Shown piece after piece: positions 4,103-16,809 of a stretch of DNA of 32,000 nt (the stretch's first letter is position 1; each line of letters opens with the position of its first letter). The stretch comes from Pyrobaculum aerophilum str. IM2 (GTDB lineage: Archaea; Thermoproteota; Thermoprotei; Thermoproteales; Thermoproteaceae). The DNA lies in assembly GCF_000007225.1 (NCBI RefSeq), contig NC_003364.1, forward strand, positions 1,470,001 to 1,502,000, read 5' to 3'. The position numbers and the translations under genes were made by a program. The notes under the pieces were generated by a model. That model saw nothing but the letters and a program-made list of their open reading frames with translations, did no database searches and was not told the origin of the DNA.

Positions 4103-4443
4103 CATTATTGTTATTTAAAGCATTAAATGAAAATAGATTAGTAGGCTCTATATGTAAAAAATGTGGGTATGCCCACTTCCCGCCGTTAGAAAAATGTCCA
4201 AAATGCCGCGGTGAAAATGAGATAGTTGATGTGTCAAAGCACGGCGTGGTTCTAACATATAGCGAGGTTTATGTCTCAAACGGAATCTTTGAAACTCCAT
4301 ACACTGTTGCCATTGCCCAATTCGGAGCTTTTAAAATACCGGGAAGAGTAGTATCAAAAGTTAATATTGGAGATCCTGTTCAATGGGAAATAATAGAAAT
4401 AAAAAGAAGCCCTGGCCGTTGGTATATTTTCAAGAGGATATAA
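4099..4443 (+). CDS. DUF35 OB-fold / rubredoxin-like Zn-ribbon protein (thiolase partner)
   Basis: 114-aa ORF with a four-Cys ribbon, CKKCGYAHFPPLEKCPKC. It is ATGA-coupled (4099-4102) to the thiolase. Confidence 0.85.
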   Translation: MTLLLFKALNENRLVGSICKKCGYAHFPPLEKCPKCRGENEIVDVSKHGVVLTYSEVYVSNGIFETPYTVAIAQFGAFKIPGRVVSKVNIGDPVQWEIIEIKRSPGRWYIFKRI

Positions 4444-6277
4444 TTTTAACTTCTTCTAATGCCCTTTTCACTTCATCTATTGACGCCTCGTCCTCTAAAG
4501 TCGAGATATCACCTATTTCACCGCCGCTAATTAAAGCCCTCAAAACTCTTCGCATAATCTTGCCTGTCCTAGTCTTAGGTAGTTTATTTACTACATAAAC
4601 TTTAGATACTACGGCAACTGGGCCGAACTCCCTCTTAAGAAATTCTACTACTTCTTGAGAGTTTATTCTCACCCCCTCTTTAGGCACTACAAAAATAGCC
4701 AAGGTAGTTCCCTTAATTTCATCGGGAACTCCTACCGTAGCCGCTTCAACAACGCCGGGGAATGTTGCAACTATATTTTCAACCTCAGCAGGGCTTAATC
4801 GATGGCCAGCTATTTTGATGACATCATCCGCCCGCCCGAGTATATAGATGTATCCCTCTTCATCTTTTATGCCAACGTCGCCAGTATAGTACACTCCCGG
4901 AAATTTTGACCAATACGCCTCAATCCACCTCGCTGGATTTCCCCATATGCCCAATGCGAACGCCGGCGGTGTAGGCGGTAATATAACAACATGGCCTTTT
5001 GCGCCAGGCGGAAGCTCTTGACCATTATCGTCATATATTCTTACATCAATTCCTGGATATGGAAGACCTACACTCCCTTCTTTGTATCTAATCCCCCCGA
5101 CTCCATAACCTCCAGGTGCTGCAATAAAGCCAGAGTTTTCGGTCTGTCCCCACGTCTCCACCACGTGGCACCCCTGCCGGTTTTTACACACATGGCTTTT
5201 TAGCCACTTCCAAGCCTCTTTTCCTAAAATTTCGCCTGCGCTCACCACCATTTTTAAACTCTCAAGAGAATACTTAGCGGGCCACTCCTCGCCATATCTC
5301 ATTAATAGCCTCACGGCCGTGGGGGAAAGCCATATAAACGTCGCCTTACTTCTGTCAACAATTTCCCACCACACGCCCGGGTGCGGGTAATCGGGCGCAT
5401 CTTCATACCACACAACGGTGGAGCCGTTTAATAACGGCCCATAGAGCCCATAAGTATGTCCATTTATCCAACCTATATCAGCAGTGGAGAATAGAATATC
5501 TCCTTTTTCAAACCCAAAAAACCACTTAGTGTGCGCATAAGCCCACACCATATAGCTCCCGTGCCCGTGATAAATTCCCTTGGGCTTTCCGGTTGTTCCA
5601 GATGTGTAAAGAATAAAAAGCGGATCGTCAGATTTGACCCAGGTGTATTCAATTTCGCATTTTTCTAAGAGGTTTTCTGCCTGTACGAAATCGCCGTCTA
5701 TTTTTTCGCCCAGGTAATTAAATACAACTACTCTCGCGCTATCCGCCGCCTTTAATGCGATTTCAGCTAGCTTTATAACCTTTCCCCTCCTCCTCATTGC
5801 GTCTACTGTTAGGATAATCTTAGAGCCTGAGTCCAATATTCTTTCATGCAATGCTCTAACGCTGAAGCCTGAAAAAACGACGTTATGTACTGCGCCTATT
5901 TTTGCAACAGCTAACATGGCATATGCCGCCTGTGGAATCATGGGCATGTATATAGTTACTCTATCGCCTTGTTGTACGCCAGCTTTTTTCAATAGACACG
6001 CCCACTTATTAACCTCTTGAGATAATTCACCATATGTAATTATGTGCGGCTTTAATTCGGAGTTGAACCATATAATAGCTGGTTTATCTTTTGAATGACG
6101 TTCTAGGATATTATACGTAATATTTGTAACGCCTCCTACAAACCACCGGTAAAAAGGCGGATTTGAGCCGTCTAATGGCTTTTCCCATTTTTTCTTCCAG
6201 AAGAGCTCTTTAGCTACAGATTCCCAGAAAATCTCAGGATAACTGATAGACTTCCTCCAGAACTCAATATAATCCAT
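4430..6277 (-). CDS. Acetyl-CoA synthetase-family AMP-forming acyl-CoA synthetase
   Basis: 615-aa ORF with YTSGTTGKPKG, WGQTE, YYTGD and LPKTRTGKIMRRVLR motifs and an ACS-type N-terminus (FWESVAKELFW...WFVGGVTNITYNILERH). A TATA-like box lies about 23 nt upstream of ATG 6277. Substrate was not determined. Confidence 0.9.
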   Translation of the reverse strand: MDYIEFWRKSISYPEIFWESVAKELFWKKKWEKPLDGSNPPFYRWFVGGVTNITYNILERHSKDKPAIIWFNSELKPHIITYGELSQEVNKWACLLKKAGVQQGDRVTIYMPMIPQAAYAMLAVAKIGAVHNVVFSGFSVRALHERILDSGSKIILTVDAMRRRGKVIKLAEIALKAADSARVVVFNYLGEKIDGDFVQAENLLEKCEIEYTWVKSDDPLFILYTSGTTGKPKGIYHGHGSYMVWAYAHTKWFFGFEKGDILFSTADIGWINGHTYGLYGPLLNGSTVVWYEDAPDYPHPGVWWEIVDRSKATFIWLSPTAVRLLMRYGEEWPAKYSLESLKMVVSAGEILGKEAWKWLKSHVCKNRQGCHVVETWGQTENSGFIAAPGGYGVGGIRYKEGSVGLPYPGIDVRIYDDNGQELPPGAKGHVVILPPTPPAFALGIWGNPARWIEAYWSKFPGVYYTGDVGIKDEEGYIYILGRADDVIKIAGHRLSPAEVENIVATFPGVVEAATVGVPDEIKGTTLAIFVVPKEGVRINSQEVVEFLKREFGPVAVVSKVYVVNKLPKTRTGKIMRRVLRALISGGEIGDISTLEDEASIDEVKRALEEVKIISS

Positions 6278-6645: not shown

Positions 6646-6651
6646 TTGTAC

Positions 6652-7788
6652 ATGGGATGGTCTGAATATGAAGTGTCTTTAAAAATTATTAGAGAATTTG
6701 TAAACCAGTATGTAAGGACGCGGGCTAGGGATATTGATAGGGGCGCCTATCCCAGGGATATCATTAGGAAATTAGGTGAGCTCAACTTCCTCGCCCCCAC
6801 GTTGCCTCCGGAGTTTGGCGGCGCTGGCGCAGATACTCTAACTCACATACTAGTGGTGGAGGAGCTAGCTAGGGCCAGCCCTGGCGTGGCCACTATTATG
6901 GAGATACAGAGCTCTATGATTGCCGAAAATATATATCACAACGGGACGAAGAGAATGAAGGAGGAAATCCTGCCGAAAGTCGCCGCCGGAGAGGTAATCG
7001 TCGCCTTCGCCCTCTCGGAGCCTTGTTGCGGCTCAGACGCAGCGGCTATACGAACTAGGGCTGAGAAAATCGGCGGGGAGTGGGTTATAAACGGCCACAA
7101 GATGTGGATAACTAGCGGCTTATATGCAGACTACTACCTCCTCTTCGCGAGGACGGGCCCGCTTGAGGCGAGGCATAAGGCAATTACGGCGTTTTTAATA
7201 CCGCGGAGTAATTGTGTGGAGGCAACCCCCATTGAGGTAATGGGGGTGAGGGGCACTGGCACCGCCGAGGTAAAATTCAACAGCTGTAAAGCCGGCGACG
7301 AGGACGTAGTAGGCGAGGTGAACGGGGGATGGAGTGTGGCCATGTGGGGGATAAATATGGGGAGACTTAACGTAGGGGCCATAGGGCTGGGAATCGCCGA
7401 GGAGGCCTTTTACCAGGCGTATGATTACGCGCACAAGAGAGAGGCCTTTGGGAGGCTCATAGCGGATTTCCAAGCAATTCAGCACTACCTGGCGGAGATG
7501 TACGCAAGAGTAGAGGCGCTGAGGGCGTTAGTATACAAAACGGCTAAGATGCGGGACGAGAACCACCCAGATTTTCCGCTGTATGCCCAAGTGGCTAAGC
7601 TAATGGGCTCGCGTACTGCCGTTGAAACGGCCAGATTGGCGGTTCAAATTCTAGGCGGCTACGGCTACTCCACGGACTCCCATGTGGAGATGCTGTACCG
7701 CGACGCCAAAGTGACAGAGATCTACGAGGGGACAAATGAAATTATATTAAATACAATATATAAGTTCTTAAAGTCGAAATTTACTTAG
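6652..7788 (+). CDS. Acyl-CoA dehydrogenase (paralog 1)
   Basis: The ORF opens at 6646 (TTG) and the first ATG is at 6652, 24 nt downstream of TTTTAAATTT. The ACAD signature ALSEPCCGSDAAA and the C-terminal YEGTNEI catalytic-Glu motif are present. Confidence 0.9.
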   Translation: MGWSEYEVSLKIIREFVNQYVRTRARDIDRGAYPRDIIRKLGELNFLAPTLPPEFGGAGADTLTHILVVEELARASPGVATIMEIQSSMIAENIYHNGTKRMKEEILPKVAAGEVIVAFALSEPCCGSDAAAIRTRAEKIGGEWVINGHKMWITSGLYADYYLLFARTGPLEARHKAITAFLIPRSNCVEATPIEVMGVRGTGTAEVKFNSCKAGDEDVVGEVNGGWSVAMWGINMGRLNVGAIGLGIAEEAFYQAYDYAHKREAFGRLIADFQAIQHYLAEMYARVEALRALVYKTAKMRDENHPDFPLYAQVAKLMGSRTAVETARLAVQILGGYGYSTDSHVEMLYRDAKVTEIYEGTNEIILNTIYKFLKSKFT

Positions 7789-9127
7789 ATTGTAAATATA
7801 CAGAGGCTTTTTTAATAGCTTTAATTATATTTAAATAGCCTGTACATCTACATATATTTTTTACAGAGAGCTTCAAGACGTCGTCTCTCGCCTGCGGGTC
7901 TATTCTCAAGTAGTCCACAGCGGCCATTATAAAGCCGTGGGTGCAGTAACCGCACTGCATGGCGTACTCTTCGAGAAACGCCTTTTGAACTGGGTGCAAC
8001 TGCCCCCCGCGCTGTAAGGAGCGCACGGTCTCCACTCTATGCCCCGCGGCTTGTACTGCGAAGATAGTACAAGACTTAACGGCGCGTCCGTCTAATAGCA
8101 CTGTGCACGCGCCGCAACGGCCCTCGTCGCACCCCCGTTTTACCTCTTTAAATCCCTTTTCCCTAAGGAAGTCAATAAGCAGTCTCCTCGGCTCCGCGTC
8201 AATTATGAACTCCCCGCCGTTTATCCACGCGGAGTTTCCCCCCGAGCCCCTCCACTTCTCCACCTCCCTCTTTTTAGGCAAAGTCCACTCGGCCCTCCCC
8301 GAGAGCTGGGCCAAGGCTTTTGACATAAAAATAGGCAAAAGCCTTCTCTTCTCATCGTATTTCATATGGGGATCGTCGTACGGCTCGCCTTCTGGCATTT
8401 CAGCGGCGATTTTATCAGCCCTATCCTTGGCCTCGGCCGGCGTTAAGCCGTCCAGCGCCCCCTCCAGCACCACGGGCCTTGTGTACAAGCCGCCTACTGC
8501 TATCCTTGATTTTGTCACAACGCCGTTTTCCTCCTCGGCGGCTACGGCTATTATCAGACTGGGATAGGAGGCGCCCCTCCTCTTATACACCACTACGCCC
8601 TGTCTGCTCCACTTAGGCACGGCTATCTCGACGACTAACCCGTCCTCGGCCTCCGTCTCGTAGGGGCCTTTAATAAACTGGGAGATGGGATATATGTAAA
8701 CGCCTTTTTTCCTCCTCACGGCTACTTCTGCGTTTAATGCGGCTAACACCGCCGGGTAATTAGCCGCGGGGTCTGCGTGGGCTAGGGAGCCCCCGATAGT
8801 TCCCCTATTTCTCACCTGGAGATCTGCTATATGCCACGCGGCCAAGGAGAGGGCAGGGGCCCACCTCACCACGGTCTCGTGCATCGCTACGTCGTTGTGC
8901 GTAAGTAAAGCGCCTATTTTCAGCTTCTCCTCCTCGCGTATATAGCGCAACTCGTCTAGTTCAAAGATGTCCACCAGCCCCTCGTGCGCAACTACGCCGA
9001 GTTTTAACAACGTGGAGATGGACTGGCCCCCTGCCAGCGGCCTATAGCCCTCCTCTACGTACTGCAACGCCTCCTCCACGCTGTTGGCTTTGATGTATTT
9101 AAAATGCCGGGGGTAGGGAGGTCTCAT
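7781..9127 (-). CDS. Fused FAD-binding (CoxM/XdhB-like) + [2Fe-2S] (CoxS/XdhC-like) subunit of a xanthine-dehydrogenase-family molybdoenzyme
   Basis: 448-aa ORF. The N-terminal half has LAGGQSISTLLKLG and RNRGTIGGSLAHADPAA (FAD_binding_5-type). The C-terminal part has C-x4-C-x2-C-x11-C (CDEGRCGACTVLLDGRAVKSC) and QCGYCTHG...CRCTGY. It is ATGA-coupled to the large-subunit gene. Confidence 0.87.
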   Translation of the reverse strand: MRPPYPRHFKYIKANSVEEALQYVEEGYRPLAGGQSISTLLKLGVVAHEGLVDIFELDELRYIREEEKLKIGALLTHNDVAMHETVVRWAPALSLAAWHIADLQVRNRGTIGGSLAHADPAANYPAVLAALNAEVAVRRKKGVYIYPISQFIKGPYETEAEDGLVVEIAVPKWSRQGVVVYKRRGASYPSLIIAVAAEEENGVVTKSRIAVGGLYTRPVVLEGALDGLTPAEAKDRADKIAAEMPEGEPYDDPHMKYDEKRRLLPIFMSKALAQLSGRAEWTLPKKREVEKWRGSGGNSAWINGGEFIIDAEPRRLLIDFLREKGFKEVKRGCDEGRCGACTVLLDGRAVKSCTIFAVQAAGHRVETVRSLQRGGQLHPVQKAFLEEYAMQCGYCTHGFIMAAVDYLRIDPQARDDVLKLSVKNICRCTGYLNIIKAIKKASVYLQSK

Positions 9128-11424
9128 AGCGGCAACGAGCTTATTGTCTTTTTGTATAAGTCCGCCACGGCGTTGGCAATAGCGGCCGGCGCCCCCATGA
9201 CTGGCCCCTCGCCTGATCCCAAAGCGCCTGAGGGGAGGTACCCCACGGGAGTCTCGAAATGAATTAATTCAACGTCCACGCCTACAAACTGGGACAAATC
9301 CGGCGTTCCGTAAGTCTCTAACAATAGGGACTTCGGCGACGCGTTTTCGTCATATTTCAATTCCTCATACAGCGCCATACAAACCCCGTGGTGTATCCCC
9401 CCGAGGAGCTGGCCCTCTAACAGCTCTTTTTTCAAAATCCTCCCGGCGTCGTGGGAAACGACGTATTTTAAAAGCCTAAGCTCGCCCTCTGCCTCCTCCA
9501 CTACAGCTAAATGGGCTTGTATTGCATACGCCGCGGAGGAGTTGACTCTATCCCCGACGGGGGCCTTGACCGTGGGCGGGTGGAAGAACACAGTAGCTGA
9601 GAGATTTGCGTCTACGCCCTCCGGCAAGCCGCCTGGATCCCAGTGGACGGCGGAGGCCAGTTGCCTTAAGTCAAGCTTCCTGTTGGGATTTGCCTCGTCG
9701 TATACAACCCCTTTTTGATACACGACGCGGCCCGCCCCTAATAACGCAGAGCCTAGAGCGATGATCTTCTCTTTAATTATCCTCGCCGCCAATATAGCCG
9801 CACTGGCGACCACGGGAGCGAATCTACTCGAATAACTCCCGCTGGACAACGACCAGGTTAGAGAGGTGTCAACTCTGTAAATCACTTTTACGTTACTGGG
9901 ATCTATTTCGAGCTCCCTCGCCACCACTTCGGCCAGCGCGGTCTCGTGGCCCAGCCCCTCGTTAGTGGCGTTTACAAACACATTCACCGCCCCGTGGGGA
10001 TCGACGCTTATAGTTACGTACTCCCCCGAGCCGGAGTGGGGGTACTTCCTCCTCTCCGCCTGTAGGGCCACGTCCACATAGCCCAGATTAGTTCCGCTCG
10101 GCTCGATAACCACAGCAATTCCCACGCCCACCCTCATCCCCCTCCTCTGCAAATCGCGCCATTTTCTATACTCCGGCTCCAGCGCTTTTAATACTCTGGC
10201 GTAATCTTGCATGGGGTAGAGGCCGCCAGTCACTGTTTCGTAAAAACGCCAGCCGTACTTTTCCAACGGGAATTGGCTTATTAGATTTCTCAGCCTTATT
10301 TCAAAGGGATCTATCCCAAGCCTCCTGGCCAATTCGTCCACCGCCCTCTCCAGCGCAAAGTAAAACTGAGGGCCTCCGTAACCTCTGTTAAGCCCCGTGG
10401 GCATTCTGTTAGTGAACACCACCGTATGCCTCACTTCAATAGCCCTTATGTCATAAGCGCCGTTTAAATTGCCGTGAACTCTATACAACGCCCCCGGCTC
10501 AGGCGGCCTAAGATAGGCGCCGACGTCTTCTACAAAGTCGTATTTAACGGCCAGTATACGCCCCTCTTTAGACGCGGCGATTTCCACAGTGCCGGCTCTC
10601 TCGCCGTTTGAACTACTGGCAACTAGGCTTTCAATCCTAGTTTCAATCCATTTCACAGGCGCGTTGGCAAGCCTTGAGGCGGTTGCGGCGAGAATTATAT
10701 AGGGATAGAGGGAGTATTTAATGCCGAAGCTGCCCCCTATGTCTCTGGGGGTTTGTAGCCTAATTTTTGAAGTGGGCAAGTCAAGCGCTCTTGATATGAA
10801 GTACATATAAAGGGCGGGGCCTTGGATATTTGCCCAAATCTCCAGCTCATCCCCCCTGTAGTCGGCGATTACTCCATACGGCTCTAACGGCATTGCAGTA
10901 TGCCTGGGGAATTTAAACTGGAACTTCTCCACCACGTCGGCGATTTTAAAGGCCTTGTCCACGTCGCCAAACGACATATGCCTCACAGTTGCGACGTTTG
11001 TGCCCAGCTCTTCGTGTACGAGCGCCCTCCCTCTGAGCGCGTCTTCTATAGACGCCACAGGCTCCAAGGGCTCGAAGTCCACATTGACGTAATCAAGCAG
11101 ATCAACGGCCTTGTACTTATCCCTGGCGAGGACCACCGCCACTGGCTCGCCGTAATACCTAGCTTTGCCGACGGCGATTGGATAGTATTTTATCGGCAGG
11201 CCCAAGGCGTTGGGGATGGGGTTTTTAATTATTCTCAAGAGGTCCTCTGGGGCGTAGGCCGCGCCCCCGCGCTTCCAGACGTCGGAAACGTCCACTTTTT
11301 TAATCCTCGCGTGGGGGTAGGGGCTTCTGTATATCGCCATGTGCAAAACCCCCCTGGGCTCGGGCAAGTCGTCTATGTACTCCCCGGCGCCAGTGACAAA
11401 CCTCAGCCCCTCTCTATAGGTCAT
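9124..11424 (-). CDS. Molybdopterin-binding large subunit, xanthine dehydrogenase / aldehyde oxidase family
   Basis: 766-aa ORF with FVTGAGEYIDDL at the N-terminus, GGSFGIK, TNRMPTGLNRGYGGPQF (XDH-type RG-F/Y-GGPQ motif) and the C-terminal GSGEGPVMGAPAAIANAV catalytic-Glu region. No CODH-type AYRCSFR motif is present. Confidence 0.9.
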   Translation of the reverse strand: MTYREGLRFVTGAGEYIDDLPEPRGVLHMAIYRSPYPHARIKKVDVSDVWKRGGAAYAPEDLLRIIKNPIPNALGLPIKYYPIAVGKARYYGEPVAVVLARDKYKAVDLLDYVNVDFEPLEPVASIEDALRGRALVHEELGTNVATVRHMSFGDVDKAFKIADVVEKFQFKFPRHTAMPLEPYGVIADYRGDELEIWANIQGPALYMYFISRALDLPTSKIRLQTPRDIGGSFGIKYSLYPYIILAATASRLANAPVKWIETRIESLVASSSNGERAGTVEIAASKEGRILAVKYDFVEDVGAYLRPPEPGALYRVHGNLNGAYDIRAIEVRHTVVFTNRMPTGLNRGYGGPQFYFALERAVDELARRLGIDPFEIRLRNLISQFPLEKYGWRFYETVTGGLYPMQDYARVLKALEPEYRKWRDLQRRGMRVGVGIAVVIEPSGTNLGYVDVALQAERRKYPHSGSGEYVTISVDPHGAVNVFVNATNEGLGHETALAEVVARELEIDPSNVKVIYRVDTSLTWSLSSGSYSSRFAPVVASAAILAARIIKEKIIALGSALLGAGRVVYQKGVVYDEANPNRKLDLRQLASAVHWDPGGLPEGVDANLSATVFFHPPTVKAPVGDRVNSSAAYAIQAHLAVVEEAEGELRLLKYVVSHDAGRILKKELLEGQLLGGIHHGVCMALYEELKYDENASPKSLLLETYGTPDLSQFVGVDVELIHFETPVGYLPSGALGSGEGPVMGAPAAIANAVADLYKKTISSLPL

Positions 11425-12200
11425 GCCCCCGTGTAGTTAGGCCTTCTTTTTTCAAAAAACGCCTTTATCCCCTCTTCGAAATCTCTGCTGTATCTCAAAA
11501 CCCCAAAGGTTTTACGCTCTAGGTCAAAGCCCACTTCCCTCGGCGCATCTGCTATCATAGACACCAGCTTCTTCGCCTCCTTTAAGGCAAGAGGCGGCAG
11601 CTCTCTGAGCTCTCTGGCGATTTCTAATACCCTCCCCCTCAGTCCCTCCGGCGGAACTACCTCGTCCACAAGCCCCAATTTCAGCGCCTCCTCTGCGGTC
11701 ATCCTCTTGCCCAATAGGATGTAGTACTTCGCCCTGAGAGGGCCCAGGGCTTTTACAAATCTAGTCAGGCCACCGCTGGCTGGCACCATTCCCAGCCTAA
11801 CCTCAGGGAGGCCGATTACGGCATTAGTTGAGGCGATGCGTATGTCGCACGAAAGGGCCAGCTCCAGCCCCCCTCCTAAAACATAGCCCTTTAATTCTGC
11901 TATAGTCGGTATAGGCAACTCCTCCAGCTCCACCAACGTCTTCCCCCAGTCTAACAGGTCTGTCGTAGTGGTTTTTAAAAACTCCCCCATATCGCCTCCG
12001 GCCGAAAAAGCCCTATCCCCCGCAGAGGCCACTATTAACACCCGCGCCTCTGTTTTTAATAAATCCCCCAGGGCCTCGCCGATGGCGCGCCGCATTTCCA
12101 AAGTAATTATGTTTAACCTCTCGGGGTAATTTATTAACAGCTGGTATATCCCCTCCTCCACTTGCTCCAGCCTTATCTTCCCGCCGGCGTATTCCCTCAT
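11421..12200 (-). CDS. Enoyl-CoA hydratase/isomerase (crotonase) family protein
   Basis: Crotonase motifs are present: VASAGDRAFSAGGDMGEF and GYVLGGGLELALSCDIRIAS. The start is placed at Met24 of the ORF (ATG 12200..12198), which forms an ATGA overlap with the upstream aldehyde dehydrogenase stop. The stop is ATGA-coupled to the Moco large-subunit start. Confidence 0.85.
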   Translation of the reverse strand: MREYAGGKIRLEQVEEGIYQLLINYPERLNIITLEMRRAIGEALGDLLKTEARVLIVASAGDRAFSAGGDMGEFLKTTTTDLLDWGKTLVELEELPIPTIAELKGYVLGGGLELALSCDIRIASTNAVIGLPEVRLGMVPASGGLTRFVKALGPLRAKYYILLGKRMTAEEALKLGLVDEVVPPEGLRGRVLEIARELRELPPLALKEAKKLVSMIADAPREVGFDLERKTFGVLRYSRDFEEGIKAFFEKRRPNYTGA

Positions 12201-13633
12201 ATGGGGTACTTCCTCTCCCTCAGCGTAATAGTCAACCAGCGATCGTAAGTAGTCTCGTGGAAAGACCACTCGCCCCCCTCTCTGCCGAAGCCGCTCGCCT
12301 TAATCCCCCCGAAGGGCACGTGGGATTCCTCAAGCATTGTCACGTCGTTGATGTGCACCATGCCGCTTTCAATCGCCTCTGCGATTTTAAAGGCCCTATT
12401 TATATTAGTGGTAACCACCGCCGCCGAGAGGCCGTACTCCGTGTCGTTTGCAACTTCAACAGCCTCGTCGTCGTTTTTAACCGGCACCACCGGGCGTATT
12501 GGGCCGAAGACTTCCTCCCTCATAATTCTAAAATTCCTATCCACGTCGACGAATACAGTGGGCCAGAAATACGCCCCAGCCCTCTTCCCGCCCGTAAGCG
12601 CCCTGCCCCCTCTAGACACCGCGTCTTGGTAAAACCTCTCCATCTCGTCGGCTTGCCTAGGCGATATGAGGGGGCCTTGTTCCACCGTCCTGTCCCTCGG
12701 ATCTCCCACTTTAAGTTGAGAAACTCTCTCTACAAACTTCTTCACAAAGACGTCATAAACCCTCTCATGTACAATAATCCTCTTGCTAGAGGTGCAGATC
12801 TGTCCTTGGTGGAAAAAGGCGCCGAATACAGCTATTCTCACCGCCAGGTTTAAATCGGCGTCGTCTAGTATGATGAGCGGATCGCTGCCGCCGAGCTCCA
12901 GAGTAACCGTCTTCAACGCGCCACCAGCTTTACTAGCAATTTCCCTCCCCGTGGCGCTCTCGCCTGTGAAAGTGACGTGGGACACTTTTTTATTCACAAC
13001 TATTTCATCCCCCACGGTGGAGCCCGGGCCCACTACTAGGTTGAAAACCCCCTTGGGGAACCCGGCTTGGTGTATCATCTCGGCAATTTTAAAGCCGGTG
13101 ACGGGAGTCTCGCTGGCCGGCTTGTAAACAATGGTGTTCCCCGTAGCTAATGCGTGCGCGATTTTCTTCATGGATATTGAAAGCGGGTAGTTCCACGGCG
13201 TTATGACCCCCACCACTCCCTTAGGCCTTTTGAAAACCATTGACACAACTCCTTCAGCGTCTGATTGGAGCGTCTTCCCGCCGTAGTGTCTGGCCAGCTC
13301 CGCGGCGTTTCTCACAAGACGCTCAGTGAAGACAACCTCCCCCCACGCCTTTTTATATATCCCCCCGCCCTCTACCATTAAGATGTTTATTAACTCTTCC
13401 TCTCTGCTTTTAATAATTTCGTAAAGCTTATACAAATACTCCGCCCTTTTAATCGCGGGGAGCTGTGACCAAGCTTTGAGGGCGTCATACGCGGCGTCAA
13501 TAGCCGCTTTGGCGTCCTCCCGTTTTGAAACTGGCGTCTCAGCTATTACTGATCCGTCAATCGGCGAGTGTTTTGGCCTACGTTCTTCAACTTCAATAAA
13601 TTCACCATTTATATAGTTTTTAACTATAATCAT
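12197..13633 (-). CDS. NAD(P)+-dependent aldehyde dehydrogenase
   Basis: 478-aa ORF with ALDH motifs ITPWNYP, TLELGGSDP, FHQGQICTSSKR (catalytic Cys) and EEVFGP. TTATTTAAATATT lies about 27 nt upstream of ATG 13633. Confidence 0.9.
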   Translation of the reverse strand: MIIVKNYINGEFIEVEERRPKHSPIDGSVIAETPVSKREDAKAAIDAAYDALKAWSQLPAIKRAEYLYKLYEIIKSREEELINILMVEGGGIYKKAWGEVVFTERLVRNAAELARHYGGKTLQSDAEGVVSMVFKRPKGVVGVITPWNYPLSISMKKIAHALATGNTIVYKPASETPVTGFKIAEMIHQAGFPKGVFNLVVGPGSTVGDEIVVNKKVSHVTFTGESATGREIASKAGGALKTVTLELGGSDPLIILDDADLNLAVRIAVFGAFFHQGQICTSSKRIIVHERVYDVFVKKFVERVSQLKVGDPRDRTVEQGPLISPRQADEMERFYQDAVSRGGRALTGGKRAGAYFWPTVFVDVDRNFRIMREEVFGPIRPVVPVKNDDEAVEVANDTEYGLSAAVVTTNINRAFKIAEAIESGMVHINDVTMLEESHVPFGGIKASGFGREGGEWSFHETTYDRWLTITLRERKYPI

Positions 13634-13770
13634 GGATTATGATATATTCCAGTTATTTAAATATTTCTTCCGATATAAGTTTATTCACGATATTTAAGAA
13701 TGTAAGATACTTAAAAATAGAGTTGGGGATTACGTAGTATCATTTTTAAATCAATAAAAAATAGATCTAC
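13634..13770. promoter_or_regulatory. AT-rich divergent promoter spacer (ALDH operon <-> acyl-CoA synthetase)
   Basis: 137-bp AT-rich spacer. TATA-like boxes lie at about 13654-13667 (minus-strand gene) and 13743-13751 (24 nt upstream of ATG 13771). Confidence 0.55.
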
Positions 13771-15651
13771 ATGGAATTATGGCGGCCAGAAAAACACCAC
13801 CTTGAGGAGTCTAATGTGGCAAAGTACATAACCTCCCACGGCATCAAGGGGCTTGACGACTTCCTCTCGCTCACTTTTGACAAGCCTGAGGAATTCTGGC
13901 GCTCCTTCGAGAAAGAGGTGTTGAAGCTTGGTTGGTACGAGGAGTACATAAAGGTGCTGGATCTATCCAAGGGAGTCCAATGGCCTAGGTGGTTCGTCGG
14001 CGGCAAGATCAACATAGCGGATCAGCTGGAGGATTCCTCCCGTCCCCTTGTCAAATGGGAGGGGGAAGACGGGTCGACCGCCGTCTGGAGCTATTCTGAG
14101 GTGCTCTACAAAGCCAAGGCGGTCGCCAGCTGGCTGAAGAGAAACGGGCTCGAGAAGGGGGATCGCGTGGCTATCTTCATGCCGATGGTGCCCGAGATAA
14201 TCCCGGTCATGCTGGGGGCCATCAGAGCTGGCGGCGTCATAGTCCCGCTTTTCAGCGGCTTCGGCAAGGAGGCCATAAGGGTTAGGCTCGAGGACAGCGA
14301 GGCTAAGTTCGTCTTCGCCTCCGATATCTCCTACAGGAGAGGCAAGGAGATCGATATGCTCTCGGAGCTGAGAGCCGGCTTGACGCCCTCAGTGAAGCGC
14401 GTGGTGGTGCAGGAACGCTCCGGACGTAGCAGCGGCTATACGCCGCTCTCCGAGGTCTTCAAGACCGGCGGCGACCACGTAGAGAGGGCAGACGCAGAGG
14501 ATCCCATCATGATTATATATACCTCGGGCACCACGGGGAAGCCTAAAGGCACCGTCCATACGCACGACGGCTTCCCCGTGAAGGCCGCCGCCGACGTCTA
14601 CTTCCACTTCGACGTGAGCGAGGGCGAGACCTTGAGCTGGGTGACAGACATGGGGTGGATGATGGGGCCTTGGATGGTCTTCGCCGCGTATCTGCTCAGA
14701 GGCTCCATGGCCTTCTTCGAGGGAGCTCCAGACTACCCCAAGGACAGACTCTGGCGTTTTGTGGAGCGCTTCAAGGTGAACGCCTTGGGCCTGGCGGCGA
14801 CGTTAACGAGATATCTCCGCTCCATAGGCGCAGCGGCGGAGCCCGGCCAGCTGGATTCGCTCAAAGCCTTCGGCAACACGGGGGAGCCCATAGACGTCGA
14901 GAGCTGGCTGTGGCTATACCGCATGGGAAGGGGGCGCATACCGATTATAAACTACTCCGGCGGGACCGAGATATCAGGGGGGATATTGGGTTGCTACGTG
15001 GTGAGGCCCATAAAGCCCAGCTCTTTCAACGGGCCTAGCATAGGCACTAAAGCCGCGGTGTTTACTGAGGATGGGAGGCCGGCCCCGCCTGGCGTTGAGG
15101 GAGAGCTCGTGGTACTCTCGGTGTGGCCCGGCATGACGAGAGGCTTCTGGAGGGATCCCCAACGCTATTTAGAGACTTACTGGAACAAGTGGCCTGGAGT
15201 GTGGGCCCACGGCGACGCTGCCGTAGTGGATGAAGAGGGCTTCTTTTACATACTGGGGAGGGCAGACGACACCATAAAGGTGGCCGGAAAGCGGCTGGGA
15301 CCCGCCGAGATTGAGACTGTCCTCAACGCCCATCCTGCCGTGGCCGAGTCCGCCTGTATAGGCGTCCCCCATGAGATTAAGGGCGAGGTGCCCGTATGTT
15401 TCGTGGTGTTGAAGCCGGGCTATGAGCCCAGTGAGGCCTTAAGGCGCGAGTTGATCAAGCTGACGGAGGAGGCCTTAGGCAAAGCCTTCGGCGCGGTGGA
15501 GGATATAAGGTTCGTCAAGATGTTGCCGAAGACCCGCAACGCCAAGATCATGAGGAGGGTGATAAGGGCGGTGTACTTAGGCCGCAACCCCGGCGACCTA
15601 TCGGCGCTCGAAAATCCGGAGGCCATAGAGGAGATAAAAAGAGCTCTGTGA
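13771..15651 (+). CDS. AMP-forming acyl-CoA synthetase, ACS/acetoacetyl-CoA-synthetase-like
   Basis: 626-aa ORF with YTSGTTGKPKG, HGDAAVVDEEG and LPKTRNAKIMRRVIR. The N-terminus (WRPEKHHLEESNVAKYI...PEEFWRSF) resembles the acetoacetyl-CoA synthetase-type leader. It is visibly more GC-rich than the paralog at 4430-6277. Confidence 0.9.
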   Translation: MELWRPEKHHLEESNVAKYITSHGIKGLDDFLSLTFDKPEEFWRSFEKEVLKLGWYEEYIKVLDLSKGVQWPRWFVGGKINIADQLEDSSRPLVKWEGEDGSTAVWSYSEVLYKAKAVASWLKRNGLEKGDRVAIFMPMVPEIIPVMLGAIRAGGVIVPLFSGFGKEAIRVRLEDSEAKFVFASDISYRRGKEIDMLSELRAGLTPSVKRVVVQERSGRSSGYTPLSEVFKTGGDHVERADAEDPIMIIYTSGTTGKPKGTVHTHDGFPVKAAADVYFHFDVSEGETLSWVTDMGWMMGPWMVFAAYLLRGSMAFFEGAPDYPKDRLWRFVERFKVNALGLAATLTRYLRSIGAAAEPGQLDSLKAFGNTGEPIDVESWLWLYRMGRGRIPIINYSGGTEISGGILGCYVVRPIKPSSFNGPSIGTKAAVFTEDGRPAPPGVEGELVVLSVWPGMTRGFWRDPQRYLETYWNKWPGVWAHGDAAVVDEEGFFYILGRADDTIKVAGKRLGPAEIETVLNAHPAVAESACIGVPHEIKGEVPVCFVVLKPGYEPSEALRRELIKLTEEALGKAFGAVEDIRFVKMLPKTRNAKIMRRVIRAVYLGRNPGDLSALENPEAIEEIKRAL

Positions 15652-15745
15652 TCGAGCATACAATGCTTATAGCGTAGGGGTAGCTTGACCTCAACGAAAT
15701 ATAAATAGAGGCGGCACCTCGTCCGTAACTGTTGTCTTTTATTAC

Positions 15746-15991
15746 GTGATACCGTGGCTTAAGAAGGCAGCGGGGGTCGGTAAAACGATGATCGTAGCCG
15801 ACGTTAGGTTGAGAGGGAAGCTCGAGGCCGACGTCTACGTCGAGGATATCGATAAACGCGAGGTGGAATATTCGCCGAGCCGCTTAGGCTATGTCTGCAC
15901 GGTAGAGCAATGTTATGCCGATATCTTGACGTACGGAGACGCTGGCCCTATCTGGTGGACCTACTATGGTCGTTTGGGCTATACGATGTGA
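15746..15991 (+). CDS. Hypothetical small protein (orphan)
   Basis: 81-aa ORF with a GTG start; an internal ATG at 15787 would give 67 aa. No family was recognised. A TATA-like AAATATAAATAG lies at about 15698-15710. Confidence 0.3.
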   Translation: MIPWLKKAAGVGKTMIVADVRLRGKLEADVYVEDIDKREVEYSPSRLGYVCTVEQCYADILTYGDAGPIWWTYYGRLGYTM

Positions 15992-16469
15992 ATAAGGTCT
16001 ATGCTCTGGCGGGCCCCCGAGGGAGAGCCGTCTTGGCGGCCTTAATGATCTAGGAGATGTTGCTCACAGGTCGTAACAGGTCCTGAGGGTCTTTTGATCC
16101 CTACAGGGAGGACTTCATGCCTTGACTCGATTACGTGGCGAGGTGGACGACGGGATAGATACTCGACAATGGCGCTAAAGATATCGCGTCAATTTAGGAA
16201 GCGTCCCCACTTTAGACAAGATCAAGCGGATCCTCACGAGACTCGGCGCGCGATCCGGCCAATCTCAGCAATTGTTGGCGGACGGGAAGAGGATAGCCTA
16301 CGTGTTGATATATTCCGATATCTTGAACAGATGGGGGTACATGTTGGGCTAAGGTCTATATATAATATTTAGTTCTGCCGAACATAGGGGAGCCCCTAGG
16401 TTCACGTTCGACGTAGACACCTCGCCGCCAGCGTTGACGGATAAGCTATCTGCGTTGAGATAAATCGCC

Positions 16470-16799
16470 GTGATAAACGCCAGCCTGCTGGAGGCGGGCT
16501 ACACGAAGGCCGTCAAGATACATAGATACGTCTACTTCGGGCTTTTCGAACATGACGTCGAGAAGTACGTTCTCCCCTATTTATTGCCGTTGAGAGTGCC
16601 GGTGTTGACTAGGTGGTCGGACGTTCCTCTGTGGGGCTACCTAGGGCGTCCTGGCGTATATGTCAGCTACGATGTCATCGCGGAGATCAAACGGATATCC
16701 GTTGAAACCCTGTGCGTAGATATGCCGGGGGGTGGATTACCTGAGGGCCGGCGTTTCAATAGAGCTCAAGCCGCCGGTGGAGGAATAGGGTGGCTTTAA
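16470..16799 (+). CDS. Hypothetical protein (orphan)
   Basis: 109-aa ORF with a GTG start. No motif was recognised. Confidence 0.3.
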   Translation: MINASLLEAGYTKAVKIHRYVYFGLFEHDVEKYVLPYLLPLRVPVLTRWSDVPLWGYLGRPGVYVSYDVIAEIKRISVETLCVDMPGGGLPEGRRFNRAQAAGGGIGWL

Positions 16800-16809
16800 G
16801 ATCTCCGTC

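What the first reader, a model, noticed from the sequence alone, without database searches (positions are those of the whole stretch)
7781..15651. Xanthine-dehydrogenase-family molybdoenzyme wired into CoA-ester chemistry (Hmf / 4-hydroxybenzoyl-CoA-reductase-like logic)
Seen:
- A minus-strand operon with three ATGA junctions (12197-12200, 11421-11424, 9124-9127) encodes aldehyde dehydrogenase, a crotonase-family protein, a Moco large subunit and a fused FAD/2Fe-2S subunit.
- It shares a 137-bp AT-rich divergent spacer with an AMP-forming acyl-CoA synthetase (13771-15651).
- Its far end tail-overlaps an acyl-CoA dehydrogenase.
- The large subunit carries the XDH-type RGYGGPQ motif, not the CODH AYRCSFR motif.

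Established:
- A few XDH-family enzymes act on CoA thioesters. Examples are 2-furoyl-CoA dehydrogenase HmfABC, encoded with a CoA ligase HmfD and a crotonase-family hydrolase HmfE and preceded by an aldehyde oxidation step, and 4-hydroxybenzoyl-CoA reductase.

Inference: the gene set (aldehyde -> acid, acid -> acyl-CoA, Moco hydroxylation, crotonase-type hydration/hydrolysis) suggests a heteroaromatic or aromatic aldehyde/acid degradation route via a CoA ester in a hyperthermophilic archaeon. That differs from the glyceraldehyde or CO oxidoreductase function usually assigned by default.
Basis: partly seen in the sequence, partly recalled or inferred. Interest (0 to 1): 0.65.

Follow-up and report, generated by a model that had tools for sequence, protein, structure and literature searches.

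The report
Archaeal furoyl-CoA-dehydrogenase-type (Hmf-like) catabolic operon
A Pyrobaculum (hyperthermophilic archaeon) operon encodes a molybdenum hydroxylase and a crotonase that are true relatives of the bacterial furoic-acid pathway enzymes HmfABC and HmfE, so it most likely breaks down a furan-type (heteroaromatic) acid as its CoA ester, a route not yet described in archaea.

Summary
Its interpretation holds, and the link is homology, not only shared logic.

- **Large subunit (766 aa).** It falls at 100% NJ bootstrap inside the clade of bacterial HmfA-type 2-furoyl-CoA dehydrogenases. That clade includes furoate- or furfural-degrading Cupriavidus pinatubonensis and Dinoroseobacter shibae. 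CoxL, quinoline oxidoreductase, Kdh and the Sulfolobus glyceraldehyde oxidoreductase lie outside it.
- **Crotonase.** It belongs to the HmfE (2-oxoglutaroyl-CoA hydrolase) group and is linked to this type of large subunit in bacteria and in a second archaeal clade.
- **Operon conservation.** ALDH-crotonase-Moco-FAD/FeS is kept in all six Pyrobaculum loci examined. It is not kept in Vulcanisaeta, Thermocladium or Sulfolobales.
- **Differences from bacterial hmf.** The FAD and 2Fe-2S subunits are fused and there is no CoxG domain. The ligases are not HmfD orthologues. Several residues that are invariant Phe in bacterial HmfA are aliphatic here.
- **4-hydroxybenzoyl-CoA reductase, CO dehydrogenase and glyceraldehyde oxidoreductase** memberships fail.
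- **The ALDH** is the orthologue of crystallised AlDHPyr1147, whose tested substrates have Km of 15-21 mM.

Verdict: an archaeal variant of a known pathway. The substrate (2-furoyl-CoA or a related heteroaryl-CoA) is unproven. Interest is moderate.

The parts
12197..13633 (-). NADP-type aldehyde dehydrogenase, first gene of the operon. Proposed step: aldehyde (for example furfural) to carboxylate.
   Evidence: Pfam Aldedh, 568 bits. 764 bits to PDB 4H73. The P. ferrireducens orthologue (70% identity) is identical to 4H73 = AlDHPyr1147. That enzyme is NADP-specific with Km 15-21 mM for the aliphatic aldehydes tested; furfural was not tested (PMC5121451). The gene lies next to the crotonase in 6/6 Pyrobaculum loci.
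11421..12200 (-). HmfE-like crotonase-family protein (259 aa). Proposed step: hydration or hydrolysis that opens and releases the hydroxylated acyl-CoA (2-oxoglutaroyl-CoA hydrolase type).
   Evidence: ECH_1, 181 bits. 52% identity to the crotonase fused in-cluster to the clade-B large subunit of S. solfataricus, and 33-39% to the HmfE of Geobacillus, Peribacillus, Amycolatopsis, Cupriavidus and Dinoroseobacter clusters. Database relatives are named '2-oxoglutaroyl-CoA hydrolase' by JGI. Both crotonase catalytic Glu are invariant (alignment A1). ATGA overlaps at both ends.
9124..11424 (-). HmfA-type molybdopterin-binding large subunit (766 aa) of an acyl-CoA hydroxylase.
   Evidence: Pfam domains. 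40-45% identity over the full length to HmfA of hmfABCDE clusters. NJ tree: archaeal clades A+B plus bacterial HmfA-like form a clade at 100%, excluding CoxL, Qor, Kdh and GAOR. 31 of 41 family-specific positions are shared. Below cut-off for glyceraldDH_alpha (431/790), CODH (354/950) and 4hydrxCoA_A (292/995).
7781..9127 (-). Fused FAD-binding (N-terminal) and double [2Fe-2S] (C-terminal) electron-transfer subunit, equivalent to HmfB plus HmfC.
   Evidence: FAD_binding_5, Fer2 and Fer2_2. The FeS part is 40-43% and the FAD part 28-34% identical to HmfC/HmfB-like proteins. The same fusion follows the large subunit in Pyrobaculum, Vulcanisaeta and Sulfurisphaera. No Cys occurs in residues 1-330.
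13634..13770 (.). Divergent promoter spacer between the ALDH operon and the 626-aa ligase gene.
   Evidence: 137 bp, 23% GC. TTTAAATA/TTTTTAAAT boxes lie about 21-28 nt upstream of each ATG, which fits leaderless archaeal transcripts. Promoter function is inferred.
13771..15651 (+). ACS-family AMP-forming acyl-CoA synthetase (626 aa); candidate acid-activating ligase.
   Evidence: ACAS_N/AMP-binding. Below cut-off for acetate-CoA ligase (473/657). Only about 25% identical to HmfD, but 32% to the ACS-class ligase of the S. solfataricus clade-B cluster. Orthologues (75-85%) lie 3-6 kb from the large subunit in L001, L004 and L028.
4430..6277 (-). Second ACS-family ligase (615 aa); alternative candidate ligase.
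   Evidence: Its 63% orthologue lies directly next to ECH-ALDH and is convergent with the FAD/FeS gene in P. ferrireducens and L018.
97..1365 (-). Short FadD/MenE-class AMP-binding ligase (422 aa); third candidate ligase.
   Evidence: Same NCBIfam class as HmfD (PRK06187/MenE-like). Its 54-55% orthologue ends 4 nt inside the start of the large-subunit gene in P. ferrireducens (8721-10004 against 10001) and directly abuts it in L018.
6646..7788 (+). Convergent acyl-CoA dehydrogenase. It belongs to the surrounding CoA-ester catabolic island; a role in this pathway is not shown.
   Evidence: Acyl-CoA_dh domains. Orthologues (67-75%) lie within 3 kb of the large subunit in all Pyrobaculum loci.

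Best explanation
The minus-strand operon encodes an archaeal version of the Trudgill/Hmf 'lower' pathway for a five-membered heteroaromatic acid, most simply furfural/2-furoate.

**Proposed steps**
1. The NADP-dependent ALDH oxidises the aldehyde to the acid (inferred).
2. An AMP-forming ligase from the island makes the CoA thioester (inferred). The candidates are the divergent 626-aa ACS-type enzyme, the 615-aa ACS paralogue and the 422-aa FadD-class enzyme.
3. The two-subunit molybdoenzyme is the HmfA-like Moco subunit plus the fused FAD/2x[2Fe-2S] subunit. It hydroxylates the ring of the acyl-CoA with oxygen from water and passes the electrons through FeS and FAD to an unknown acceptor. Family membership is shown. 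The substrate is inferred.
4. The HmfE-like crotonase completes ring opening and thioester hydrolysis. For furoyl-CoA this yields 2-oxoglutarate plus CoA. Family is shown. The reaction is inferred.

No step needs O2, which suits a facultatively anaerobic hyperthermophile.
For: **Large subunit**
- It is 40-45% identical over its full length to HmfA of bona fide hmfABCDE clusters. These include D. shibae DFL12, a confirmed furfural degrader (PMC3223595). They also include C. pinatubonensis, whose strain JMP134 grows on furoate with only hmfABCDE (PMC8091172). Bacterial HmfA proteins are only 46-55% identical among themselves.
- NJ tree with 100 bootstraps: the window clade, a second archaeal clade and bacterial HmfA-like proteins form a clade at 100%. 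CoxL (8uem), Qor (1t3q), Kdh (7dqx) and S. tokodaii GAOR (4zoh) fall outside.
- Similarity drops steeply outside the family. phmmer scores about 600 bits against HmfA-like proteins, 312 bits against the best PDB CoxL and 194 bits against 4-HBCR.
- 31 of 41 HmfA-family-specific positions are conserved. These include the TGLxRG(Y/F)GG active-site loop and GEGxxM around the catalytic Glu.

**Crotonase and linkage**
- The crotonase is HmfE-like.
- Its adjacency to this type of large subunit is conserved in about 24 bacterial loci, in three Sulfolobales clade-B loci and in 6/6 Pyrobaculum loci.
- Three ATGA overlaps couple ALDH, crotonase and both Moco-enzyme genes.

**Other points**
- The gene order large subunit, FAD, FeS matches hmfA-B-C, with B and C fused.
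- An ALDH also sits in the D. shibae hmf cluster.
- The characterised ALDH orthologue has only millimolar Km for aliphatic aldehydes, so its real substrate is still open.
- JGI labels close archaeal homologues of both proteins with the Hmf KO names.
Against: - No activity or growth data exist for any archaeon. No paper in the held library mentions an archaeal furoyl-CoA dehydrogenase.
- Identity to phenotype-backed HmfA (40-41%) is below the 45% cut used by Donoso et al..
- No HmfD orthologue is present (about 25% identity). There is also no UbiD/HmfF, CoxG domain, XdhC or MocA in the window.
- The window belongs to archaeal clade A. A paralogous clade B in Sulfolobales has the more hmf-like context (UbiD, Zn-ADH, MFS, ligase, crotonase). 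Clade B also retains F200 and F204, which are invariant in bacterial HmfA. Clade A has I/A/M there, Ile for F635, and a clade-specific Tyr237.
- Outside Pyrobaculum, clade-A genes stand alone or sit next to LigB/Amidohydro_2-type genes.
- The tree is distance-based, has no HcrA and no C. basilensis HmfA, and the outgroups were typed from PDB alignments.
Confidence: 0.55

Rival explanations
1. The enzyme family and chemistry are the same (Mo-dependent hydroxylation of an acyl-CoA followed by crotonase-type ring opening or hydrolysis), but the substrate is not 2-furoyl-CoA. Clade A would be a neofunctionalised paralogue acting on another heteroaryl- or aryl-CoA, such as thiophene-2-carbonyl-CoA, pyrrole-2-carbonyl-CoA or a substituted or six-membered ring. 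Clade B would be the true furoyl-CoA dehydrogenase.
For: - Clades A and B are separate 100%-supported paralogues, each with its own crotonase subtype.
- Clade B keeps the UbiD context and the Phe residues flanking the Mo-site Gln. Clade A replaces F200, F204 and F635 with aliphatic residues. It also has an invariant Tyr at the position of bovine XDH Glu802 (the position mapping rests on my own knowledge of XDH).
- Sulfolobales clade-A and A-type crotonase genes lie beside LigB, Amidohydro_2, muconolactone isomerase and FAA hydrolase genes.
- The Pyrobaculum operon is embedded in a large island of thiolase/DUF35, acyl-CoA dehydrogenase, CaiB and thioesterase genes. Furoate breakdown to 2-oxoglutarate would not need these.
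Against: - No positive evidence points to any particular alternative substrate.
- Pyrobaculum appears to carry only clade A next to the HmfE-like crotonase, so clade A may simply be its furoyl-CoA enzyme.
- Clade A still shares 72% of HmfA-specific positions.
Confidence: 0.3
2. The molybdoenzyme is a free-substrate oxidoreductase (a glyceraldehyde/aldehyde oxidoreductase or an N-heterocycle hydroxylase). It merely neighbours an ALDH/crotonase/ligase set that serves branched-chain or fatty acid catabolism in a CoA-ester island.
For: - The best NCBIfam hit is glyceraldDH_alpha (431 bits).
- The ALDH orthologue oxidises isobutyraldehyde, propionaldehyde and glyceraldehyde in vitro.
- The island is rich in beta-oxidation-type genes.
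- In Vulcanisaeta, Thermocladium and several Sulfolobales the enzyme genes have no CoA-related neighbours.
Against: - The score is far below the family cut-off (431 against 790). The solved S. tokodaii enzyme scores only 243 bits and is the most distant outgroup in the tree.
- The crotonase is specifically HmfE-like and overlaps the large-subunit gene by ATGA. Large-subunit/crotonase/ligase linkage is a family-wide trait.
- The ALDH Km values of 15-21 mM argue that these aldehydes are not physiological substrates.
Confidence: 0.1
3. The enzyme is a 4-hydroxybenzoyl-CoA-reductase-like enzyme working reductively (dehydroxylation of a phenolic acyl-CoA), or an aerobic CO dehydrogenase.
For: - It belongs to the XDH family with three cofactor domains.
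- 4-HBCR also acts on a CoA ester.
- NCBIfam gives CODH_aero_grp5 354 bits and 4hydrxCoA_A 292 bits.
Against: - All scores are far below cut-offs (950 and 995).
- The FAD part has no Cys at all in residues 1-330, so it cannot hold the extra [4Fe-4S] cluster of 4-HBCR beta.
- There is no AY(R/A)CSFR Cu-binding loop.
- No coxDEFG-type genes are present.
- PDB 1rm6 scores only 194 bits.
Confidence: 0.03

Closest known systems
HmfABCDE, the 2-furoate lower pathway of Cupriavidus basilensis HMF14 / C. pinatubonensis JMP134 / Dinoroseobacter shibae DFL12 (2-furoyl-CoA dehydrogenase EC 1.3.99.8 plus furoyl-CoA synthetase plus 2-oxoglutaroyl-CoA hydrolase)
   Same: - The large subunit is in the same clade (100% NJ support) at 40-41% identity.
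- The active-site loop signature TGLxRG(Y/F)GG and GEGxxM is shared.
- The gene order is the same: large subunit, FAD, FeS.
- An HmfE-type crotonase is in the same operon and an AMP-forming ligase lies nearby.
- An ALDH is present, as in the D. shibae cluster.
   Different: - FAD and FeS subunits are fused into one 448-aa protein.
- There is no C-terminal CoxG/SRPBCC domain (bacterial HmfA is about 1012 aa).
- The ligase is not an HmfD orthologue. It is either ACS-class or a short 422-aa FadD-class enzyme.
- No LysR/AraC regulator, XdhC, MFS or UbiD/UbiX genes are present.
- F200, F204 and F635, invariant in bacteria, are I, A and I here. Tyr237 is specific to the archaeal clade. The Mo-site residue 201 is Gln, against His in 15 of 19 bacterial proteins.
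- The host is a hyperthermophilic archaeon.
Geobacillus kaustophilus HTA426 plasmid pHTA426 hmf-like cluster (a thermophilic Gram-positive reported as a preliminary furfural degrader)
   Same: Large subunit 41-42% identical and crotonase 38% identical. Large subunit, FAD, FeS, ligase and crotonase are clustered.
   Different: Subunits are separate, with a separate CoxG protein. The cluster has UbiD, MFS, XdhC, MocA and two HmfD-type ligases.
Sulfolobales 'clade B' clusters (Saccharolobus solfataricus, Sulfurisphaera ohwakuensis): MFS, Zn-ADH, UbiD, HTH_10, AMP-ligase, crotonase, Moco large subunit. Uncharacterised.
   Same: It is the sister archaeal clade (A+B at 100%). The large subunit is 41-44% and the crotonase 52% identical. 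An ACS-class ligase replaces HmfD.
   Different: Clade B has UbiD and ADH neighbours and keeps F200/F204. No FAD/FeS genes lie next to the large subunit, and no ALDH is present.
4-Hydroxybenzoyl-CoA reductase HcrABC (Thauera aromatica, PDB 1rm6)
   Same: An XDH-family enzyme acting on an aromatic CoA thioester.
   Different: Much more distant (194 bits; TIGR03194 scores 292 against a cut-off of 995). It works reductively and has an extra [4Fe-4S] cluster in the FAD subunit, for which the window protein has no cysteines.
Sulfolobus glyceraldehyde oxidoreductase (NF041018; S. tokodaii PDB 4zoh) and aerobic CO dehydrogenase CoxLMS
   Same: Same superfamily and cofactor set, and the usual default annotations for crenarchaeal XDH-family genes.
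   Different: Scores are below family cut-offs (431/790 and 354/950). Both are outgroups in the tree. The window protein lacks the Cu-binding AYxCSFR loop and has no CoA-independent context.

Membership tests
HmfA-type 2-furoyl-CoA dehydrogenase large subunit | Groups with HmfA of phenotype- or context-verified hmfABCDE clusters to the exclusion of other characterised XDH-family enzymes | tested here: met
   NJ tree, 759 columns, 100 bootstraps. The archaeal clades plus bacterial HmfA-like proteins form a clade at 100%, with CoxL, Qor, Kdh and GAOR outside. HcrA and C. basilensis HmfA itself were not included.
HmfA-type 2-furoyl-CoA dehydrogenase large subunit | Sequence-similarity thresholds used in the literature: at least 40% similarity with HmfA, HmfD and HmfE homologues in the vicinity (Wierckx 2011), or at least 45% identity to C. 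basilensis HmfA (Donoso 2021) | tested here: inconclusive
   40.3% identity to C. pinatubonensis HmfA and 40.9% to D. shibae HmfA. This passes the relaxed 2011 criterion for HmfA and HmfE but not the 45% identity cut.
HmfA-type 2-furoyl-CoA dehydrogenase large subunit | Family-specific conserved residues, including the active-site loops | tested here: met
   31 of 41 positions that are at least 90% conserved in 19 bacterial HmfA-like proteins and absent from 4 outgroups are shared. However, F200, F204 and F635 are not conserved.
hmf gene cluster | HmfE-type crotonase (2-oxoglutaroyl-CoA hydrolase) encoded next to the dehydrogenase | tested here: met
   The crotonase overlaps the large-subunit gene (ATGA). 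It is 33-39% identical to HmfE of five bacterial clusters and 52% to the clade-B-linked crotonase. Database relatives are named 2-oxoglutaroyl-CoA hydrolase by JGI.
hmf gene cluster | HmfD-type furoyl-CoA synthetase encoded in the cluster | tested here: not met
   The best identity of any window ligase to HmfD-like proteins is 22-29%. The ligases present are ACS-class (626 and 615 aa) or a short FadD/MenE-class protein (422 aa). Functional replacement is possible but unproven.
hmf gene cluster | Separate HmfB (FAD) and HmfC (2Fe-2S) subunits and a CoxG/SRPBCC module | tested here: not met
   A single 448-aa FAD-FeS fusion is present, and no PF06240 hit occurs in the window proteins. Bacterial clusters carry CoxG fused to HmfA or HmfC, or as a separate protein.
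HmfABC enzyme | Catalytic activity: hydroxylation of 2-furoyl-CoA at C5 | not testable with these tools
   Needs an enzyme assay. No archaeal data were found in the literature library.
Aerobic CO dehydrogenase (CoxL form I) | AY(R/A)CSFR Cu-binding active-site loop; NCBIfam TIGR02416 / NF040766 cut-offs | tested here: not met
   The loop reads LNRG--YGGPQ. Scores are 287/991 and 354/950.
Glyceraldehyde oxidoreductase (glyceraldDH alpha/beta/gamma) | NCBIfam equivalog cut-offs NF041018/19/20 | tested here: not met
   Scores are 431/790, 192/350 and 175/290. PDB 4zoh scores 243 bits and is an outgroup.
4-Hydroxybenzoyl-CoA reductase | TIGR03194/95/93 cut-offs; Cys-containing insertion binding a [4Fe-4S] cluster in the FAD subunit | tested here: not met
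   Scores are 292/995, 64/405 and 138/258. No cysteine occurs in residues 1-330 of the FAD/FeS protein.
Crotonase superfamily hydratase/hydrolase | ECH_1 fold with the two catalytic glutamates | tested here: met
   PF00378, 181 bits. E113 (GGGLELA) and E133 (LPE) are invariant in alignment A1.
AlDHPyr1147-type NADP aldehyde dehydrogenase | Orthology to the crystallised P. ferrireducens enzyme (PDB 4H73) in the same gene context | tested here: met
   70% identity and 764 bits. The L001 gene next to the crotonase is 100% identical to 4H73.

The most novel reading that the evidence does not exclude
Clade A is a previously unrecognised archaeal acyl-CoA hydroxylase whose substrate is not 2-furoyl-CoA. 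It would be another heteroaryl- or aryl-CoA, for example a thiophene- or pyrrole-carboxyl-CoA or a larger ring. Together with its own HmfE-type crotonase, it would give hyperthermophilic Thermoproteota an O2-independent, water-dependent route for opening aromatic rings at about 90-100 C. The enzyme has a distinct two-subunit architecture and a remodelled substrate pocket.
Probability: 0.3. Interest if true: 0.7.

Novelty: new variant of a known kind. Interest (0 to 1): 0.5.

Why it matters
- **Source of substrate.** Furfural and related furans form abiotically when sugars are heated (PMC5779731 abstract). Hot-spring organisms should therefore meet them constantly. Even so, furan catabolism through furoyl-CoA has been described only in bacteria in the literature I could search.
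- **Extension of the pathway.** If the reading is right, this operon extends the Trudgill/Hmf pathway to Archaea and to temperatures of 85-100 C. It would also provide thermostable, oxygen-independent enzymes relevant to detoxifying lignocellulose hydrolysates.
- **A candidate role for a solved structure.** It gives a physiological context to the crystallised AlDHPyr1147, whose natural substrate is unknown.
- **Annotation.** It corrects a systematic tendency to call crenarchaeal XDH-family genes CO or glyceraldehyde dehydrogenases.
- **Specificity determinants.** Two archaeal paralogue clades with different pocket residues offer a natural experiment on substrate specificity in CoA-ester-acting molybdenum hydroxylases, for which only 4-HBCR has a structure.

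Tried and rejected
- **CO dehydrogenase, glyceraldehyde oxidoreductase, xanthine dehydrogenase and 4-HBCR.** All were rejected on NCBIfam cut-offs, motifs and the tree.
- **The 626-aa divergent ligase as an HmfD orthologue.** Rejected at 25% identity. The 422-aa ligase is of the HmfD class but equally distant.
- **The generic crotonases next to clade-A genes in Sulfurisphaera and Stygiolobus.** At 29-30% identity they are not orthologues of the window crotonase, so they do not count as operon conservation.
- **Literature on archaeal furoyl-CoA dehydrogenase or furfural catabolism.** Four searches found nothing.
- **A degraded DAO gene in 15.7-17.2 kb.** The gene is present in the 82% Pyrobaculum relative, but tblastn gave no hit here. 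Pfam found nothing in the four small ORFs of that stretch.
- **Rfam over the whole window.** No RNA family was found.
- **The real C. basilensis HmfA and T. aromatica HcrA sequences.** They could not be obtained. PDB outgroups were retyped from the HMMER alignments, so a few residues may be mistyped.
- **Structure prediction.** Not run, because the tools return no coordinates and so could not test a CoA-sized channel.
- **The third database protein search and the representative-library search.** Not used, because they would not have changed the conclusion.

Full report
**1. Observation**

The window comes from a Pyrobaculum sp.; the large subunit is 100% identical to database protein P0001. 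The ORF list and Pfam scans confirm a co-directional minus-strand gene set:

| Coordinates | Length | Identity |
|---|---|---|
| 12197-13633 | 478 aa | aldehyde dehydrogenase |
| 11421-12200 | 259 aa from the ATG | crotonase-family protein |
| 9124-11424 | 766 aa | XDH-family Moco large subunit |
| 7781-9127 | 448 aa | FAD_binding_5 at the N-terminus, two 2Fe-2S domains at the C-terminus |

All three gene junctions are ATGA overlaps. The 137-bp spacer to the divergent 626-aa AMP-forming ligase (13771-15651) has 23% GC and carries TATA-like boxes about 21-28 nt upstream of both start codons. The 3' end of the FAD/FeS gene overlaps the convergent acyl-CoA dehydrogenase gene (6646-7788) by 8 bp. 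RGYGGPQ lies at residue 347 and the catalytic-type Glu at 739. No CODH-type AYxCSFR loop is present.

The operon sits in a larger CoA-ester island. That island holds three thiolase genes with DUF35/ChsH2 partners, two acyl-CoA dehydrogenases, a family-III CoA-transferase, a 4HBT thioesterase and two further AMP-ligases.

**2. What the large subunit is**

Curated models do not claim it:

| NCBIfam model | Score | Cut-off |
|---|---|---|
| glyceraldDH_alpha | 431 | 790 |
| CODH group 5 | 354 | 950 |
| 4-hydroxybenzoyl-CoA reductase alpha | 292 | 995 |

Against solved structures the best hits are M. smegmatis CoxL (312 bits), quinoline oxidoreductase (289), Kdh (255), S. tokodaii glyceraldehyde oxidoreductase (243) and 4-HBCR (194).

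Uncharacterised database relatives score far higher. After archaeal homologues at 55-82% identity comes a large set of bacterial proteins at 39-45% identity and about 600 bits, many of which JGI names '2-furoyl-CoA dehydrogenase large subunit'.

The genomic contexts of those bacterial relatives are textbook hmf clusters:
- Amycolatopsis: ligase, large subunit, crotonase, FAD, FeS-CoxG.
- Peribacillus: UbiD ... ligase, XdhC, MocA, large subunit, FAD, FeS, crotonase.
- Geobacillus kaustophilus pHTA426.
- Dinoroseobacter shibae pDSHI01: UbiX, UbiD, ALDH, hmfABCDE.
- Cupriavidus pinatubonensis: LysR, hmfABCDE, MFS, XdhC.

The literature supports these as working pathways:
- D. shibae DFL12 is listed as a confirmed furfural degrader, with HmfA 54% identical to that of C. 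basilensis.
- G. kaustophilus is a preliminary furfural degrader.
- C. pinatubonensis JMP134, which has only hmfABCDE, grows on furoate.

**3. Phylogeny and signatures**

In pairwise terms the window protein is 40-45% identical to these HmfA proteins, which are themselves only 46-55% identical across phyla.

I built an NJ tree on 759 columns with 100 bootstraps, using four PDB outgroups retyped. It gives:
- Clade A (window, Pyrobaculum, Vulcanisaeta, Thermocladium and several Sulfolobales) at 100%.
- Clade B (Saccharolobus solfataricus, Sulfurisphaera ohwakuensis and relatives) at 100%.
- A plus B at 100%.
- A plus B plus all bacterial HmfA-like proteins at 100%, excluding CoxL, Qor, Kdh and the glyceraldehyde oxidoreductase.

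Forty-one positions are at least 90% conserved in 19 bacterial HmfA-like proteins and absent from the outgroups. The window protein shares 31 of them, including the TGLxRG(Y/F)GG loop, the PRD insertion with YPY, and GEGxxM around the catalytic Glu.

**4. The crotonase and the ligases**

The crotonase:
- It is 52% identical to the crotonase that precedes the clade-B large subunit in S. solfataricus.
- It is 33-39% identical to the HmfE proteins of the five bacterial clusters.
- It is only 29% identical to a generic crotonase next to the Sulfurisphaera clade-A genes.
- In the database search its relatives beyond Thermoproteota carry the JGI name '2-oxoglutaroyl-CoA hydrolase'.
- Both canonical crotonase glutamates are invariant.

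The ligases are a different story:
- The 626-aa and 615-aa proteins are ACS-class and about 25% identical to HmfD.
- The 422-aa protein at 97-1365 is of the FadD/MenE class, like HmfD, but equally distant.
- The clade-B clusters of Sulfolobales also use an ACS-class ligase, so non-orthologous replacement of HmfD seems to be the archaeal rule.
- Which Pyrobaculum ligase serves the pathway is open. In P. ferrireducens the 427-aa ligase gene overlaps the start of the large-subunit gene, while the 612-aa ACS lies next to crotonase-ALDH.

**5. Conservation**

I combined look-ups by exact protein with a pattern scan of one genome per species. I then scored every locus by tblastn with the window proteins.

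- **Pyrobaculum.** All six loci (window, L001, L004, L017, L018 and L028 = P. oguniense TE7) have the HmfE-like crotonase (54-100%) and the ALDH (70-100%) within 4 kb of the large subunit. Two arrangements occur.
- **Vulcanisaeta, Thermocladium and Sulfolobales clade A.** These loci keep only the large subunit plus the fused FAD/FeS gene. The V. thermophila crotonase orthologue lies about 190 kb away, beside a tungsten AOR and an FAD-linked oxidase. The Acidianus manzaensis orthologue sits with LigB, muconolactone isomerase, ligases and FAA hydrolase.
- **Bacteria.** About 24 bacterial loci have the crotonase and a ligase beside the large subunit.

The operon as such is therefore genus-level. 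The large subunit/crotonase/ligase module is family-wide.

**6. Differences that matter**

- Subunits B and C are fused, in hmf gene order.
- There is no CoxG/SRPBCC module, XdhC, MocA, UbiD or regulator in the window.
- The FAD part has no cysteine, which excludes a 4-HBCR-type [4Fe-4S] cluster.

Several positions are invariant in bacterial HmfA-like proteins but differ in clade A:

| Position | Bacterial HmfA-like | Clade B | Clade A / window |
|---|---|---|---|
| 200 | F (19/19) | F | I/F/A/V across the clade; I in the window |
| 204 | F (19/19) | F or Y | M in 10/14, A in 3 (A in the window) |
| 635 | F (19/19) | C | I in 12/14 |
| 237 | A, S or Q | S | Y (14/14) |
| 201 | H in 15/19 | Q | Q |

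Positions 200 and 204 flank residue 201, which aligns with the Mo-site Gln of CoxL. By my own knowledge of the GGFGGKE motif, position 237 corresponds to Glu802 of bovine XDH. These changes suggest a remodelled pocket. They are the main reason I do not equate the substrate with 2-furoyl-CoA outright.

**7. The ALDH**

The window ALDH scores 764 bits against PDB 4H73. The P. ferrireducens gene lying next to the crotonase is 100% identical to 4H73, that is, AlDHPyr1147 / P186_1147. The published characterisation (PMC5121451) reports:
- Strict NADP+ specificity.
- Km of 15-21 mM and kcat/Km of 80-200 M-1 s-1 for isobutyraldehyde, propionaldehyde and glyceraldehyde.
- No activity on succinic semialdehyde or betaine aldehyde.
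- Aromatic aldehydes not measurable.
- Furfural not tested.
- Its closest structural analogue is a benzaldehyde dehydrogenase.

Such poor kinetics imply that the natural substrate has not been found. The gene context now suggests what to try.

**8. Mechanism proposed**

1. The ALDH oxidises the aldehyde to the acid.
2. One of the island's AMP-ligases forms the thioester.
3. The HmfA-like enzyme with its fused FAD/FeS partner hydroxylates the ring carbon next to the heteroatom, using water. Electrons leave through the two [2Fe-2S] clusters and FAD to an unidentified acceptor.
4. The HmfE-like crotonase catalyses hydration and/or hydrolysis, leading to an open-chain 2-oxo-diacid and CoA (2-oxoglutarate if the substrate is furoyl-CoA).

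What is shown: family memberships, gene coupling and conservation. What is inferred: every catalytic step, the identity of the ligase, the substrate and the acceptor.

**9. Novelty and score**

The pathway type is known in bacteria. Automated KO annotation already tags the archaeal homologues. I found no paper on it in archaea.

The archaeal version differs in subunit architecture, ligase type and pocket residues. It also exists as two paralogous clades. I rate it a new variant of a known kind, with moderate interest (0.5).

Confidence:
- About 0.85 that this is an HmfA-family enzyme acting on an acyl-CoA together with the crotonase.
- About 0.55 for the full furfural/furoate reading.
- About 0.3 for a different acyl-CoA substrate.

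Noticed in passing
L005 12308-21931 (JGI 3300005799 Ga0079638_100002) and L006 (Logan SRR19070096_1547): A clade-A homologue (61% identity) with its fused FAD/FeS gene lies next to genes hitting AmoC (PF04896), Monooxygenase_B (weak), AMO (PF02461), a cupredoxin and a Zn-ADH. Together these look like a copper membrane monooxygenase-like cluster on what appears to be a thermophilic Thermoproteota contig. An Amidohydro_2 plus FeS_assembly_P pair sits downstream.
   Followed up: no
L013 645-10268 (S. solfataricus), L014 1409-14488 (S. ohwakuensis), L030: A second archaeal paralogue group (clade B) has a strikingly hmf-like cluster: MFS, Zn-ADH, UbiD, HTH_10 regulator, ACS-class ligase, HmfE-like crotonase and Moco large subunit. 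No FAD or FeS subunit genes are adjacent. In S. ohwakuensis an Amidohydro_2 (possible lactonase), FeS_assembly_P and a second ADH follow. Where its electron-transfer subunits are encoded is unexplained.
   Followed up: partly
L001 16277-17752 (P. ferrireducens): The crystallised aldehyde dehydrogenase AlDHPyr1147 (PDB 4H73 and seven further entries) is encoded directly next to the HmfE-like crotonase in this cluster. The structural paper does not discuss gene context. The Km values it reports (15-21 mM) suggest the physiological substrate was not among those tested.
   Followed up: yes
window 15652-17264: A 1.6-kb stretch between the 626-aa ligase and the thiolase genes holds only four small + strand ORFs (81-109 aa). 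They have no Pfam hit and the stretch has no Rfam hit. It is not a remnant of the DAO gene found in the related Pyrobaculum locus L004.
   Followed up: partly
L003 12335-13684 (S. acidocaldarius SUSAZ): The fused FAD/FeS gene is intact by tblastn (45% identity over 460 aa in one segment), but the record's gene calls cover only the FeS end. Neighbours are two Amidohydro_2 genes, a LigB-type dioxygenase, a flavin reductase, an IclR regulator and an ACS. This is an aromatic-catabolism-type context, different from that in Pyrobaculum.
   Followed up: partly
L041-L046, L050-L056 (Paraburkholderia sediminicola, Chelatococcus, Acidimicrobiales MAGs and others): A bacterial subgroup has the crotonase immediately upstream of the large subunit, and its ligase is only 31-33% identical to HmfD. 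It may be another substrate variant of the same module.
   Followed up: no
window 17265-20564: Two tandem thiolase-like genes are followed by two DUF35/ChsH2 genes, and there is another thiolase/DUF35 pair at 2963-4443. This arrangement is conserved in the related Pyrobaculum loci. It resembles archaeal thiolase-DUF35 complexes and steroid side-chain aldolase/thiolase systems. Its substrate is unknown.
   Followed up: no
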